Source: Escherichia coli (GTDB taxonomy: Bacteria; Pseudomonadota; Gammaproteobacteria; Enterobacterales; Enterobacteriaceae). From it: a stretch of 64,000 nt of DNA. A program made the position numbers. Below are positions 39,001 through 45,000 of this stretch, one piece after another (position 1 is the first letter of the stretch; every line of letters starts with the position of its first letter). The stretch lies in the NCBI RefSeq assembly GCF_022846255.1, contig NZ_AP025682.1. The stretch is one strand, 5' to 3'.

Positions 39001-42000
39001 GACAGTTTGCTTTTTTCACTTATATTCGCCCAGTGTATATGAATCTGGCGGGATTCGGTGTTGATGGCTTAACCCTGGTGCTGCTGAGTTTTGGTATCGC
39101 CAGCTTTGTCGGGACATCGCTTTCGTCGTTTATTCTCAAACGTTCGGTGAAACTGGCCTTAGCGGGCGCACCGTTTGTGCTCGCCCTGAGCGCGCTGGTA
39201 CTGACGCTGTGGGGAAGCGATAAAATTGTTGCTACTGGTGTGGCGATTATCTGGGGGCTGACCTTTGCTTTAATTCCCGTTGGCTGGTCAACGTGGATCA
39301 CTCGCTCATTGGCCGATCAGGCAGAAAAGGCTGGATCTATTCAGGTGGCCGTTATTCAGCTTGCCAATACCTGCGGTGCGGCAATCGGCGGTTATGCGTT
39401 GGATAACATTGGTCTGACTTCGCCGCTGATGTTGTCCGGCACATTGATGTTGCTGACTGCATTGTTGGTGACTGCAAAGGTGAAAATGAAGAAATCCTGA
39501 TATCAGGTAAAGAAGCGTTGGTCAGTGGTTGTTGCCGTTCTTACATATCCGGGCATTCTACCTTACCCAACGCTTCCCAATAATTGCTCTGATTATTACG
39601 TTCCATCGCCACGATGGCCTCGCGTATATGTTGTTTATTGTTTTCATCTGACAACATTAACTTTTCCCACGCTTCATCTGATAATGACGCCTGTGGCGTG
39701 CAAATTTTACGTAAATCTTGCAATACCGTGGTTTTCTCTTTTGCCGACTGTAGAGAACTGAATGGCGACTCGGCCTGAGAAATGGCTGGAAAAATCAGGA
39801 ATACGGTAATCATGAGTAGCATCGTTGGCTTCATAGCGGCAACCTTCTGCAAATGTGCATCGAATGAAGCATAAGTGTAGTTTGCTTTTGCCGCTCTCAT
39901 CATGCTGTACGAAAGGTGTTTGCGTGGTCAGTAAGAAGTGCCAGACTTTATATTCCACTTTTATTCCTTTTTATTCTTATCGATAGCGTTTCGTTTTTTA
40001 AACTGCAGCGACCTTACCGCTATAGTCAGGTAATCATTAATAAAAGGATAAAAAAATGAAACTGACAACACATCATCTACGGGCGGGGGCCGCATTATTA
40101 CTGGCAGGAGTTCTGCTGGCAGGTTGCGACCAGAGCAGCAGCGATGAAAAGCATATTAAAGTTGGCGTTATTAATGGCGCAGAACAAGATGTCGCGGAAG
40201 TCGCTAAAAAGGTAGCAAAAGAGAAATATGGCCTCGATGTTGAACTGGTAGGATTTAGCGGTTCGTTGCTACCGAACGATGCGACAAATCATGGCGAGCT
40301 TGATGCGAACGTCTTCCAGCATCGACCCTTTCTTGAACAAGATAATCAGGCGCATGGTTATAAACTGGTAGCGGTGGGAAATACGTTTGTCTTCCCCATG
40401 GCGGGTTATTCCAAAAAAATCAAAACCGTGGCGCAAATAAAAGAAGGCGCGACAGTGGCGATCCCCAATGACCCGACTAACCTTGGTCGCGCGCTTTTAC
40501 TGCTGCAAAAAGAGAAGCTAATTACTCTGAAAGAAGGAAAAGGGTTATTACCTACCGCGTTGGATATAACCGATAATCCACGCCATTTGCAGATAATGGA
40601 GCTGGAAGGGGCACAGTTGCCACGTGTACTGGACGACCCGAAAGTGGATGTAGCGATTATCAGCACCACTTATATCCAGCAAACAGGACTTTCTCCGGTT
40701 AACGACAGCGTATTTATTGAAGATAAAAATTCGCCGTATGTGAATATTCTGGTGGCACGGGAAGATAATAAGAATGCAGAAAACGTGAAGGAATTTCTGC
40801 AATCTTATCAATCACCCGAAGTCGCTAAAGCGGCAGAAACCATCTTTAACGGAGGCGCGGTGCCTGGCTGGTAATTCTCACTCATGCCGCGCCGGACGAT
40901 TTATTTTTCTGGCGCGGCGGCGGGAATCCATTGAAATCAAAATCACCGATGACAGAATCAGCAGCGTTCCCAGCCAGTCCGGCAATGTGAAGGTGATCCC
41001 CAGCAACAGCAAAGAGAGCAGCGCGCTACTTAATGGTTCTGCACAGCTTAAAATGCTGGCTTTTGGACCACCAATTAATTGTGCTCCTTTCAGGTACAGA
41101 CTAAATGTCAGGGACGTACCAATGACCACCAAATAAAAAAACGCCAGAATCAAACTGCCGTTAACGACAAAGTTTGTCCCTTGTCTGGCATAAAAGGGCA
41201 GCAGGATCAGACCGCCAATGAGCATACTCCAGCCGACGACCGGTAACGTGCCATAGCGAGCAATCAGCGTTGAGGGATAGGTGGTATAGAATGCAGCAGC
41301 AAATGCCGAGGCAATGCCCCAGAATAACGCGGCAGGAGAGATCGATAATGACGTCGGATTACCGTGTGTCACCAATAAAAAAGTCCCGATCAGCGATGTC
41401 AAAATAGCGCAGAAAACCAGAATGCCCGGGCGGGATTTACGCACCAGTGAGAACCAGGCGACGATAATAGTCGGTGAGAGGAATTGCAGCACCGTTGCCG
41501 TGGCTGCGTTCGATTTTTCGATGGTTAGCAAAAAAGTGAGCTGTACGGTTAGCGCGCCAACCACGGAAAAAATCAGTAGGCTAATGGCATCTTTGTGATT
41601 GTTAATAATAGAAAAGATTTTATCACCATGAACAAATGATAGCGTCAGCAGAATCAATCCGGCGAATATCAAACGCGTCATAGTCAAAAACTGCGACGAC
41701 ATCTGGCTTTGCTCCATGATGTATTGCGCGCAGACCCCTGAACTTCCCCACAACACGGCGGCAATCAGAACGTTCAGCATCCCCTTTCTGGTGGAACCCA
41801 TTTTTCCCTCTGCATACTGTTTTGTCTTTTCATCAATATACGTTAAGGATACCACTACCGATGACGGTGAGGGAGTAGAGTAATCAATCAGTTTTAGTGA
41901 ATGGAGGAAATAATGACATATAACAATTATTCATATGGTGTTTAAAAAACCTCACTAAAAACTCAATATGAAATTTAATTATTTAATGTTCAATAACTCT

Positions 42001-45000
42001 ATGGCTTTAGTATATTCATCAGGAATACCAATTGTAAAACAAGGTGCGGTATCGGTAGGTAGATTTTCTTTGTTGTCATCATCCAGAACAGAAATAGAAA
42101 ACTGTCGTTCAGGTGTTGATGTCGTGGTTATTAAAATGGTTGGATTAGGAAGAGAAACATATGTTGTCTCATTTTTAGTTTTATTTCTTTGATGTTTTCT
42201 TTGTTAATTTTATCAATCGTTTCAATAGAAAAAAAAGAATCATACCCCATTCGCAGTTCAATTTTATTATCGTTTTCGAATAAATAAATGGCATTATTGT
42301 TTTGAAACAGATTGAATATATTGTTAGCGCAAGTTTGAGTTGCTAGCCAGGATGCCGCTGGATGACTCAAATTAATATGTGTGCTAAAGACTTTGACGCG
42401 ACTACTTCTGTTTTTCTCTTTACTTTCAATTAAATGCCTAGCGCTGTTGGCTGCTTTACAAGTTCCATGCCCCACACGGCAAAAATAATCTCCTGAAAGG
42501 ATACTTACAATCAGTATTACACCAATGACGACAGAAAAAATAGTTCCGATGAGTTTGATGATGACAATCCTTGTGCAGTGTTATTTTCACCATGGATTAT
42601 AATGTTATAGTGAAATTATTGCGCATGTAATTTTTCTCTGATTGTTTTAACATCACATTTATGCACTTCTTCATCTTTGTAGCAGGTAAAAGCCATATAT
42701 GGATGGCTGGTGTCCGGTGCAGATAAAATGCAACTTATTCTTGATAGCTTGAAAAAAAGAGAGGTTTTTTTGAGTGACGGTTGATAGTCGGTGGCAAGGA
42801 AGACGTTTTCGTACACTCGGCAAGAAAAACGAATCACTCTGTCATACTACCAGATACATCAGCAGGGTCAGGTTGCTCAGAAATAAGCAGGATGGGGATC
42901 ACTGAAGAGGCATTTTGGCGATCACAGGAGTCGCATTTGATGGTTAATTTATTGATTTAATGTTTATATTTTGAATTTGATAAATGAGTAACCCCATAAG
43001 TACCCCCAAATGGTTTTGCGTATGGCGTTTGGGGGGATTCCGGGCTACTTTTTCGACTCTTTATTCCACTGTAGCAAACCAGCGATATCCTTCTCGCCTT
43101 CGGCTTCTTTTAAGCGCCGTTGTTGTTCGGCAAACTGAACATACTCCGCCTGCGCTTTTTCATCGGCCATTTTCTTGCTGATTTTACCAGCGCCCTGTAG
43201 AACCTCTCGGTCGTTAAATTGCAGGAACTGATCCAGCTTATCCTGCCAGTCGCGCAAAAAGACTTGCTGACGACGACGGGCCTGATCCTCGGCAAAGTCC
43301 AGCCACATATTAACCACGCGATTAAGTTCGCTGACCTCATCCTGGGTGAGATAATTTTTTGCCACCGTCACGTCGCCCTTACGTACCTCTTCACCTTTAT
43401 AACTGGTCAAGCCCATGTGCGGCTGGCTGGCATCTGCTCGTTTGTGGATGAGTTCCGCAGCGGTATGCCCGGTACAGGCAAAATGCAGTTTATTCTGGAT
43501 GGTTTGAAAAAATTGCGTGGTTTCTTTAAGCGATGGCTGATAGTCGGCAGCTAAAGCAAAGATCTCCCGCACCCGCAAATATACCCGACGCTCGCTGGCG
43601 CGAATATCGCGGATGCGTTCAAGCATCTCATCAAAATAGTCGGGCACAACCGATGAACCGACAGGCGGATTCTTCAGCCGCTCATCGTCCATCACAAAAC
43701 CTTTGATCAAGTATTCCTGAAGCGTCTGGGTGGCCCACTGGCGGAATTGCGTGCCTCGAGGCGAGCGAACGCGATAGCCGACAGCGAGAATGGCTTCGAG
43801 GTTGTAATGGTCTATCTCTCTGGAAACCTGACGTTTTCCTTCCTGGCGAACTATCCGGAATTTCCGGATGGTTGAGTTTTGAACAAGTTCACCTTCGGAA
43901 AATATATTGATTAAATGTTCGTTAATAGTGCGAACATCTTTATCGTACAGTTCAGCCATTGCCGCCTGAGATAACCAGATTGTGTCTGACTCAAAGCGAC
44001 ATTCAACACGCACTCTTCCGTCACCGCTGGCAAACATAATAAACTCGCCTGCTGGGGGCTGGGTTAAGTCTTTGTCTGACATGTCGCCTCCGAAGGAGTG
44101 TTGTTGACGTCGGGAGAGTTCAGTAGAGGCATTTTGGCGGAAGATCACAGGAGTTGAACCTGCCCGGGACCGCTGGCGGCCCCAACTGGATTTGAAGTCC
44201 AGCCGCCTCACCGGAGACGACGATCTTCCGCGCCTCGATTGCTACATGGAGGCGGGGCGCATTATAGCTACTTCCTTGAGTTTCTACATCCCCCAGATCA
44301 GTTTTTTCCGCCTAATACACGCAGCGTATTATCACGAAAACATTATAGTTCATATAAAACTCATATTTTACAATGATATATGAGCGAAATTAACGCTACC
44401 ACGATCACATAAAACAAGAATCATAAATTAATAACCAGATATCGGAATATTCGCTCTCGCAGGGATGGTTTACAAAATGCGTTATCGGTCTCAGCACCCC
44501 TATAGCATCAAGGAAAAGCAGATGAAGAGTGAAGTGTTGTCCGTTAAAGAGAAAATTGGTTATGGCATGGGAGACGCCGCCAGCCACATTATTTTCGATA
44601 ACGTAATGTTATATATGATGTTCTTTTATACCGATATTTTTGGCATTCCTGCCGGATTTGTCGGAACCATGTTTTTGGTCGCTCGTGCACTGGATGCGAT
44701 TTCCGATCCTTGCATGGGGTTGTTGGCCGATCGAACGCGCTCTCGCTGGGGTAAATTTCGTCCGTGGGTACTGTTTGGCGCACTGCCATTCGGGATCGTC
44801 TGTGTACTGGCCTATAGCACGCCAGATCTCAGTATGAACGGAAAAATGATTTATGCAGCAATTACTTACACTCTACTTACCTTACTTTATACCATCGTCA
44901 ATATCCCTTACTGCGCATTGGGTGGTGTAATCACCAATGACCCGACTCAGCGTATCTCGCTGCAATCCTGGCGTTTTGTGCTGGCGACCGCGGGAGGCAT

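What the first reader, a model, noticed from the sequence alone, without database searches (positions are those of the whole stretch)
41802..44134. AT-rich islet at the selC 3-prime end carrying a RhuM-family gene where K-12 has setC
selC (tRNA-Sec) is a classic island integration site (LEE, SPI-3, SHI-2). The 2.3 kb between the selC 3-prime end and yicL is much more AT-rich than the flanking backbone and contains a full-length RhuM-family gene (43045..44082), a diverged RhuM fragment and a small hydrophobic ORF, with no integrase. From memory, K-12 carries setC here instead. RhuM-like proteins have no established function and are often annotated as DNA-binding proteins sitting in restriction-modification or defense neighbourhoods, so a stand-alone copy at a tRNA hotspot is a reasonable candidate for an uncharacterised accessory or defense function.
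Basis: partly seen in the sequence, partly recalled or inferred. Interest (0 to 1): 0.72.

Follow-up and report, generated by a model that had tools for sequence, protein, structure and literature searches.

The report
RhuM gene stub beside selC
The 2.3 kb between tRNA-Sec and yicL holds an intact, strongly conserved RhuM gene, already listed as a candidate anti-phage gene, followed by the decayed remains of older insertions; it is an ordinary, lineage-typical E. coli arrangement rather than a new island.

Summary
The rhuM gene (43045-44082, minus strand) has backbone composition (49.6% GC). It starts 52 nt after selC and matches Pfam Virulence_RhuM (E 6e-118) and PADLOC candidate PDC-S05 (E 3e-173). 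Only the yicL-proximal 1.05 kb is AT-rich (35% GC). That part holds only debris: a frameshifted orphan membrane-protein gene and an internal fragment of an older rhuM.

A degenerate copy of the selC 3' end (42906-42931) follows rhuM, and it is also present after rhuM in Salmonella and Citrobacter. So rhuM is an att-flanked 1.2 kb stub of a selC-targeted insertion. It is under strong purifying selection (dN/dS about 0.045) and has been exchanged between genera.

The full arrangement occurs in 843 of 5426 complete E. coli genomes. K-12-type genomes carry setC plus a rhuM pseudogene remnant.

There is no Fic/DOC match by sequence, motif or fold. The N-terminal domain is a winged-helix-like DNA-binding fold, with DdrC as the nearest solved structure. 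The C-terminal helical domain has no solved relative.

One distant PDC-S05 member is reported to protect E. coli against T7, T5 and T4. Verdict: an already catalogued gene whose mechanism is still unknown; low to moderate interest.

The parts
44135..44229 (-). selC (tRNA-Sec), the integration target. Its 3' end (44135) faces rhuM.
   Evidence: ARAGORN; Rfam RF01852, 82.6 bits.
44083..44134 (-). 52-nt spacer between the selC 3' end and the rhuM ATG. It has a GGAGG Shine-Dalgarno sequence 5 nt before the ATG. No terminator-like or promoter-like site was found on this strand, so rhuM is probably read through from selC (inferred).
   Evidence: Sequence; pattern scan; the CGGAGGCGACATG start region is conserved in Citrobacter; folding is no more stable than shuffles, z = +0.85.
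43045..44082 (-). rhuM: intact 345-aa RhuM-family protein (PADLOC candidate PDC-S05). It is 49.6% GC.
   Evidence: Pfam PF13310 E 5.7e-118; PADLOC PDLC04852 E 2.8e-173; dN/dS 0.04-0.05 against orthologues; AlphaFold2 model, mean pLDDT 84.8.
42987..43049 (-). Hairpin overlapping the rhuM stop codon and extending downstream of it; a likely transcription terminator. It is conserved in Salmonella and Citrobacter.
   Evidence: RNA fold -22.6 kcal/mol, z -1.94; alignment.
42906..42931 (-). Degenerate direct repeat of the selC 3' end plus 9 nt downstream. It has 15 and 12 exact nucleotides with a 4-nt deletion. It is the attR-like scar that closes the 1.2-kb rhuM module.
   Evidence: the repeat finder families D4 and D6; BLAST of K-12 selC against this site, E 9e-6; the same scar follows rhuM in Salmonella L008/L009 and Citrobacter L006 and is retained in the island-bearing E. 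coli strain E02.
42616..42837 (-). Internal fragment of an older, diverged rhuM copy, equivalent to residues about 166-245 and frameshifted. It has the same orientation and lies just beyond the selC-end scar.
   Evidence: tblastn E 1e-10; repeat families D1/D2 at 78-81% nucleotide identity; ORFs.
41968..42593 (-). Pseudogene of an orphan single-pass membrane protein. This is the 'small hydrophobic ORF'. It has lost its start and is frameshifted in the window.
   Evidence: ORFs; alignment to E02, which has a 165-aa ORF. Only 21 related proteins were found in the 5.8-billion-protein database; the two that carry a source name are E. coli. One is an intact 230-aa version, P0273. No Pfam family matched.
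41856..42905 (.). AT-rich segment (35.0% GC) that carries the two pseudogenes above. It is the alternative allele to setC at this position.
   Evidence: Composition. Present in 1103 of 5426 genomes, against setC in 4282 of 5426.

Best explanation
What is there (shown). The interval is the decayed stub of successive insertions at the 3' end of selC.
- The selC-proximal 1.2 kb is a compact module: a 52-nt leader, rhuM and a hairpin, closed by a degenerate copy of the selC 3' end.
- Beyond that scar lies an older unit, now debris: an internal rhuM fragment and a frameshifted orphan membrane-protein gene. This debris forms the AT-rich part.
- rhuM itself is a functional gene under strong purifying selection, and it has moved between enterobacterial genera.

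How it most likely works (inferred). RhuM is a single-gene anti-phage or anti-mobile-DNA protein.
- Residues about 12-127 form a winged-helix, Bro-N/ORF6N-like DNA-binding module. This module is shared with another defence candidate family, PDC-S23.
- Residues about 145-345 form an all-helical module carrying the invariant polar residues R161, E164, N197, K242 and N243. I take this to be the effector.
- I expect the protein to recognise foreign or damaged DNA through the N-terminal module and to block infection through the C-terminal module.
- It is probably expressed at a low level by read-through from the selC promoter.

The biochemical activity of the C-terminal domain is unknown.
For: Anatomy:
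- Positions of the tRNA and ORFs.
- The selC-end repeat at 42906-42931 is conserved after rhuM in Salmonella and Citrobacter.
- In Salmonella a CP4-like island (DUF932, antirestriction, RadC, CbeA/CbtA, DUF4942) ends with rhuM followed by the scar.
- E. coli E02, which has a large island, keeps the scar plus the last 13 codons of another rhuM allele.

Selection and mobility:
- dN/dS is 0.04-0.07.
- dS between E. coli and Citrobacter or K. aerogenes is 0.65 for rhuM, against 1.5-2.5 for the adjacent yicJ and yicI.
- The order is reversed for K. aerogenes versus Enterobacter: 1.42 for rhuM against 0.53-0.76 for the flanking genes.

Defence role:
- PADLOC PDC-S05 match.
- Homologues lie inside an hsdM-hsdS operon and between DarTG and an OLD nuclease.
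- Published enrichment near type I R-M systems and a toxin proposal (PMC9881135, PMC3710099).
- A cold-seep PDC-S05 gene lowered plating of T7 and T5 about 1000-fold and T4 about 10-fold in E. coli B (bioRxiv 10.1101/2024.09.26.614923).

Domains:
- AlphaFold2 model, pLDDT 84.8, with a confidence dip at residues 131-150.
- PDC-S23 models match only residues 13-189.
- Invariant residues.
Against: - No experiment exists for this E. coli protein. The tested PDC-S05 gene is a different family member, and that result comes from a single study.
- Here rhuM stands alone, without the R-M, DarTG or nuclease partners seen elsewhere, so its role in operons may not transfer.
- Co-transcription with selC rests only on the absence of pattern hits.
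- The selC-end scar could in principle come from a local duplication rather than integrase action. No integrase remains.
Confidence: 0.6

Rival explanations
1. RhuM is an enzymatic toxin of the Doc/Fic kind. It would modify host proteins and act as an abortive-infection or addiction module, as proposed by Anantharaman and colleagues from its position in R-M operons and its fusions to Doc.
For: - Published proposal (PMC3710099).
- Many invariant polar residues in the helical domain suggest a catalytic or ligand pocket.
- Some database relatives are labelled Fic or death-on-curing.
Against: - No Pfam Fic/DOC hit at E<=10.
- The HxFx(D/E)GN(G/K)R motif is absent from the sequence.
- No adjacent antitoxin-sized ORF in the 52-nt and 110-nt flanks.
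- None of 21 longer family members carried a Fic domain.
Confidence: 0.15
2. RhuM is a host-interaction (virulence) factor, as its name and its place in Salmonella SPI-3 suggest.
For: - Salmonella literature lists rhuM among SPI-3 genes and assigns it a role in epithelial migration (quoted in PMC3680342).
- The intact E. coli allele occurs in extraintestinal-type strains such as APEC O1 and APEC IMT5155.
Against: - The family is enormous (29,152 clusters at 50% identity) and spans free-living and environmental taxa.
- Members sit inside R-M and defence operons.
- The protein has no signal peptide or secretion-related domain match. It is predicted to be a cytoplasmic protein with a DNA-binding fold.
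Confidence: 0.08
3. RhuM is a regulator that belongs to the mobile elements using selC. It would be an antirepressor-like or Bro-N/KilA-type DNA-binding protein that controls island or prophage excision or superinfection, kept at the attR end of those islands.
For: - N-terminal winged-helix module, with Bro-N labels on some homologues.
- rhuM is the last gene before the selC-end scar of a CP4-like island in Salmonella.
- Homologues occur on some temperate phages and plasmids.
Against: - No PHROG family matches.
- Only 51 of 50,697 phage records carry a homologue.
- In 843 E. coli genomes and in Citrobacter the gene persists, under purifying selection, with no island left to regulate.
Confidence: 0.12
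4. The whole interval, rhuM included, is non-functional debris.
For: Half of the interval is pseudogenes. Most E. coli genomes have only a rhuM remnant.
Against: - The ORF is intact, and identical in protein sequence to that of strain AR_0017.
- dN/dS is about 0.045 over dS 0.65-1.4.
- 840 genomes hold it at >=99% identity.
Confidence: 0.03

Closest known systems
RhuM of Salmonella SPI-3 / Pfam Virulence_RhuM (PF13310) / PADLOC phage-defence candidate PDC-S05
   Same: - Full-length HMM matches.
- 94% identical to Salmonella, Citrobacter and K. aerogenes proteins.
- Same selC-linked position, and the same selC-end scar downstream.
- Single-gene arrangement.
   Different: Nothing essential: this is a member of the family. 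In the window it sits directly beside selC with no island between. In most other taxa the family sits inside R-M or defence operons.
DdrC of Deinococcus radiodurans (PDB 7qvb, 8u0g, 8u1j), a damage-induced DNA-binding protein that senses and stabilises DNA breaks (PMC9303277, PMC11347143)
   Different: - Sequence identity is only 7-14%, and TM-scores are low (0.28-0.48).
- No sequence-profile match was found.
- The conserved polar residues of the RhuM C-terminal domain were not checked against DdrC.
- This is a resemblance in fold, not family membership.
Fic/DOC toxins
   Same: They occupy the equivalent slot in R-M-linked defence operons, and fusions with RhuM are reported (PMC3710099). Both are all-helical.
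   Different: No HMM match, motif or fold match.
selC-inserted islands (LEE, SHI-2 and PAI I named from general knowledge; CP4-like islands seen here)
   Same: Same tRNA target, and a direct repeat of the tRNA 3' end at the distal border. A large island occupies the same place in E. coli E02 and in Salmonella.
   Different: There is no integrase, only 1.2 kb of intact cargo, and backbone-like composition for that cargo.

Membership tests
RhuM family (Pfam PF13310) | Full-length match to the family HMM | tested here: met
   E 5.7e-118; residues 70-323 cover model positions 1-250 of 252.
RhuM family (Pfam PF13310) | Conserved core motifs shared with distant members (GYRV...FRxWAT, IRxxRxSE, QNK, KNY) | tested here: met
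   In a 42-sequence alignment at 37-94% identity, W36, I160, R161, E164, N197, K242 and N243 are invariant.
PADLOC PDC-S05 (single-gene phage-defence candidate) | Match to the PDC-S05 HMMs with no required partner gene | tested here: met
   PDLC04852, E 2.8e-173, positions 1-339 of 346. The flanks hold only selC and a scar.
PADLOC PDC-S05 (single-gene phage-defence candidate) | Protection against phage infection | not testable with these tools
   Reported only for another family member in E. coli B (bioRxiv 10.1101/2024.09.26.614923).
Fic/DOC | Fic HMM (PF02661) and the HxFx(D/E)GN(G/K)R motif | tested here: not met
   Only PF13310 was reported at E<=10. The motif is absent from the 345-aa sequence.
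Fic/DOC | Fic fold | tested here: not met
tRNA-linked integrative island | Insertion at the 3' end of a tRNA gene, bounded by a direct repeat of that end | tested here: met
   Repeat at 42906-42931 against 44125-44154. It is conserved across genera.
tRNA-linked integrative island | Integrase gene | tested here: not met
   No ORF longer than 114 aa other than rhuM between yicL and selC.
tRNA-linked integrative island | Composition different from the backbone | tested here: inconclusive
   The older distal part is 35.0% GC, but the rhuM module is 49.6% against 51.4% for the window.
Type I R-M-embedded RhuM | hsdM/hsdS/hsdR as immediate neighbours | tested here: not met
   The neighbours are selC and pseudogenes. 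Compare L012, where rhuM overlaps hsdM and hsdS.
Toxin-antitoxin pair | Adjacent small antitoxin gene | tested here: not met
   A 52-nt upstream flank and about 110 nt downstream before the scar, with no ORF.
Bro-N domain (PF02498) | Bro-N HMM match in the N-terminal domain | tested here: inconclusive
   No hit in this protein. 2-3 of 21 longer relatives carry a Bro-N domain, and several AlphaFold DB relatives are labelled Bro-N. The fold is winged-helix-like.
DdrC-like DNA-break binders | Homology beyond fold resemblance | tested here: inconclusive

The most novel reading that the evidence does not exclude
The selC-linked RhuM would be a widely exchanged, single-gene immunity protein with two features not yet described. 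First, its C-terminal helical domain would be a new effector fold: it has no solved relative and carries invariant residues R161, E164, N197, K242 and N243. Second, being placed 52 nt downstream of tRNA-Sec would tie its expression to the tRNA transcript. It could guard the selC integration hotspot against incoming phages or islands.
Probability: 0.12. Interest if true: 0.6.

Novelty: already known. Interest (0 to 1): 0.22.

Why it matters
RhuM is one of the largest protein families with no known mechanism. It has about 29,000 clusters at 50% identity and no solved structure, and it is scattered through R-M operons and defence islands.

The E. coli selC copy is a convenient experimental handle. 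It is a stand-alone gene under strong purifying selection, in a genetically tractable host. It has natural null alleles (K-12-type remnants) and natural intact alleles (843 complete genomes).

The locus also illustrates how a tRNA hotspot accumulates layered scars. As a discovery, however, it adds little: the gene is annotated in RefSeq, would be called PDC-S05 by PADLOC, and the defence idea is already published.

Tried and rejected
1. Fic/DOC or nucleotidyltransferase relationship. No HMM, motif or fold support.
2. Sequence search of solved structures, with the single protein and with a 42-sequence profile. Nothing was found below E about 0.6.
3. NCBIfam and PHROGs. No meaningful family matched.
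4. A regulatory hairpin hiding the ribosome-binding site in the 52-nt leader (CUCC-UUCG-GGAG). It is not in the minimum-energy fold, and the leader is no more stable than shuffles, z +0.85.
5. LexA control, prompted by a report for a Gram-positive rhuM (PMC3998124). My pattern scan had the wrong spacing (CTG-N9-CAG). It gave background numbers, with no site in the leader. By eye the leader has no CTG-N10-CAG box. I did not pursue this further.
6. Homology of the membrane-protein pseudogene to the DUF6680 gene that follows rhuM in Citrobacter. None was found. It also has no Pfam family.
7. Domain fusions as a clue to function. The 21 longer relatives gave a scatter of unrelated domains, probably from gene-calling chimeras, plus a few Bro-N or HTH domains.
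8. Rfam scan of 41000-45000. Only tRNA-Sec was found.
9. Homology between the K-12 setC segment and the AT-rich segment. None was found.
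Full report
**The observation**

The window starts at dnaA, judged from the sizes of the first ORFs and from the position of this locus in other genomes. tRNA-Sec (selC) lies at 44135-44229 on the minus strand. yicL ends at 41801, or 41855 by the longest ORF. So the 2.3-kb interval in the finding is exactly the yicL-selC intergenic region.

A 345-aa ORF at 43045-44082 (minus) is a full-length RhuM protein, with Pfam PF13310 at E 5.7e-118. The longer 388-aa ORF that starts at a GTG inside selC is an artefact of ORF extension. 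The ATG at 44082 has a GGAGG just upstream, and this start region is conserved in Citrobacter.

A rhuM fragment (42616-42837, minus; equivalent to residues 166-245; frameshifted) is real. The 'small hydrophobic ORF' is the membrane anchor of a frameshifted orphan gene at about 41968-42593 (minus). No integrase-sized ORF exists.

The composition claim holds only in part:
- 41856-42905 is 35.0% GC, the lowest 1050-bp window in the 64 kb (mean 51.4%, sd 4.4).
- rhuM is 49.6% GC, the same as yicL (48.4%) and yicJ (49.2%).

**Anatomy: a layered scar at selC**

A degenerate copy of the selC 3' end plus 9 downstream bases lies 110 nt beyond the rhuM stop, at 42906-42931. It has 15 and 12 exact nucleotides with a 4-nt deletion. 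BLAST of the K-12 selC against it gives E 9e-6.

The same scar, preceded by the same hairpin, follows rhuM in other genera:
- In two Salmonella loci, where a CP4-like island (DUF932, antirestriction, RadC, CbeA/CbtA, DUF4942) lies directly upstream of rhuM; the fetched stretches hold no intact selC.
- In Citrobacter, where rhuM directly follows selC.

E. coli strain E02 carries a large island here. It keeps the scar and the last 13 codons of a different rhuM allele.

Beyond the scar, the window has the older rhuM fragment in the same orientation. So the locus reads: selC, intact rhuM, selC-end scar, decayed rhuM, decayed membrane-protein gene, yicL. This is what successive insertions at one tRNA would leave, with the oldest lying furthest from the tRNA. 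That history is an inference. The integrase that would prove it is gone.

**Distribution**

Counts among 5426 complete E. coli genomes:
- The whole interval is present at 80% coverage or more in 843 genomes.
- Full-length rhuM is present in 842, of which 840 are at 99% identity or more.
- The AT-rich segment is present in 1103. These include Nissle 1917 and NC101, which I recall to be phylogroup B2.
- setC is present in 4282.

The two alleles, AT-rich debris and setC, together account for nearly all genomes. K-12-type genomes carry setC plus a 162-bp rhuM pseudogene remnant (residues 121-185, with an internal stop) about 80 bp from selC. The arrangement in the window is therefore typical of one lineage, not a rarity. 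The statement 'K-12 has setC instead' is incomplete.

**Selection and mobility**

Against orthologues from Citrobacter, K. aerogenes, Enterobacter and Salmonella, rhuM shows dN/dS of 0.04-0.07, so it is a working gene.

Its synonymous divergence does not follow its neighbours:
- E. coli against Citrobacter or K. aerogenes: dS is 0.65 for rhuM and 1.5-2.5 for yicJ and yicI.
- K. aerogenes against Enterobacter: dS is 1.42 for rhuM and 0.53-0.76 for the flanking genes.

So rhuM has been exchanged between genera while always sitting close to selC or to a copy of its 3' end. That fits an att-flanked module. Homologues also occur, rarely, on temperate phages (51 of 50,697 records) and on plasmids (130 of 72,556).

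**What the protein is**

The family is very large: 29,152 cluster representatives at E 0.001 or better. PADLOC lists it as phage-defence candidate PDC-S05, and the window protein matches at E 2.8e-173.

I checked genomic context for two homologues of 46-52% identity:
- One overlaps hsdM and hsdS inside a type I R-M operon.
- The other lies between DarT-DarG and an OLD-family nuclease.

Published work bearing on function:
- Enrichment of RhuM near invertible hsdS genes (PMC9881135).
- A proposal that RhuM is a toxin domain occupying the slot of Doc in R-M/PrrC loci (PMC3710099).
- A cold-seep PDC-S05 gene that lowered plating of T7 and T5 about 1000-fold and T4 about 10-fold in E. coli B (bioRxiv 10.1101/2024.09.26.614923).

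Nothing has been tested for the E. coli protein itself.

**Structure**

The AlphaFold2 model built on a 42-sequence alignment has mean pLDDT 84.8, with a confidence dip at residues 131-150 that separates two modules.

- Residues 145-345 are all-helical and end in a 40-residue helix. They have no informative solved relative.

The invariant residues I160, R161, E164, N197, K242 and N243, and many nearly invariant polar residues, lie in the second module. This looks more like a catalytic or ligand site than a scaffold.

PADLOC PDC-S23 models match only residues 13-189. The N-terminal module is therefore shared between two candidate defence families with different C-terminal parts. That is the usual sensor-plus-effector layout.

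No Fic/DOC relationship was found by HMM, motif or fold.

**Expression**

Only 52 nt separate the selC 3' end from the rhuM ATG. The pattern scan finds no terminator or promoter there on the coding strand. The leader has no significant structure. Read-through from the selC promoter is therefore the simplest expectation, but it is untested. A hairpin overlapping the stop codon and extending downstream (-22.6 kcal/mol) probably ends the transcript.

**Verdict**

The sequence features are real, but the finding joins two unrelated parts. One is a backbone-composition, functional, horizontally exchanged rhuM module. The other is an AT-rich heap of pseudogenes.

The gene is already annotated in RefSeq, where it was identical in protein sequence in the one genome I compared codon by codon (AR_0017). 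It already belongs to a catalogued defence-candidate family with one published phenotype. The Fic/DOC idea fails.

What remains open is the biochemical mechanism of RhuM. The E. coli selC copy would be a good experimental model for that, but it is not a new kind of system.

Noticed in passing
window 44158 (selC T-loop): The window's selC reads GGTTCAACTCC where AR_0017 and Citrobacter read GGTTCGACTCC, a purine-to-purine change in the T-loop. In a search of 5426 complete E. coli genomes with a 161-nt query, no record matched at 100%; the best were 160 of 161. The variant is therefore private to this strain or a sequencing error.
   Followed up: partly
window 48527-55470: Between yicI and the next backbone genes lies a sugar-utilisation cluster absent from K-12 at this place. 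It encodes a PRD-domain regulator, a fructose-type PTS EIIC, two class II ketose-bisphosphate aldolases, a ROK kinase and a lyxose/mannose isomerase. The region 48200-49300 is about 40% GC. From memory it resembles the frz operon of extraintestinal pathogenic E. coli.
   Followed up: partly
window 43045-44211 (minus): The longest ORF (388 aa, GTG start) runs into selC. UniProt A0A0H2Z489 (APEC O1, 'cytoplasmic protein', 388 aa, 98% identical) appears to carry this over-extended start.
   Followed up: partly
L003 (E. coli E02) 7346-11300: In a strain with a large selC island, the genes next to the selC-end scar are a DUF2441 protein, a retron-type HNH endonuclease, a frameshifted AAA ATPase and a CbtA/YeeU toxin-antitoxin pair. 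The same hotspot therefore carries other defence-type cargo.
   Followed up: no
L004 5105-5769, L006 7265-8496, L010 5609-5950: In K. aerogenes, Citrobacter and Enterobacter a SymE-family toxin gene sits within about 1.2 kb of rhuM near selC, on either side of it. In K. aerogenes and Citrobacter a DUF6680 gene accompanies it. E. coli lacks both here.
   Followed up: no
window 41968-42593; proteins P0271-P0291: The membrane-protein pseudogene belongs to a tiny orphan family. Only 21 related proteins were found in a 5.8-billion-protein database; the two that carry a source name are E. coli. The longest is P0273 at 230 aa. No Pfam domain was found.
   Followed up: partly
E. coli genome collection: The 161-nt selC region gave 6112 places in 5424 genomes, so several hundred genomes carry a second, partial selC copy. 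That is consistent with att repeats of resident selC islands.
   Followed up: no
RhuM residues 13-189: PADLOC PDC-S23 models match only the N-terminal half of RhuM (E about 1e-52). This implies a shared N-terminal module joined to a different C-terminal part in that second candidate family.
   Followed up: no
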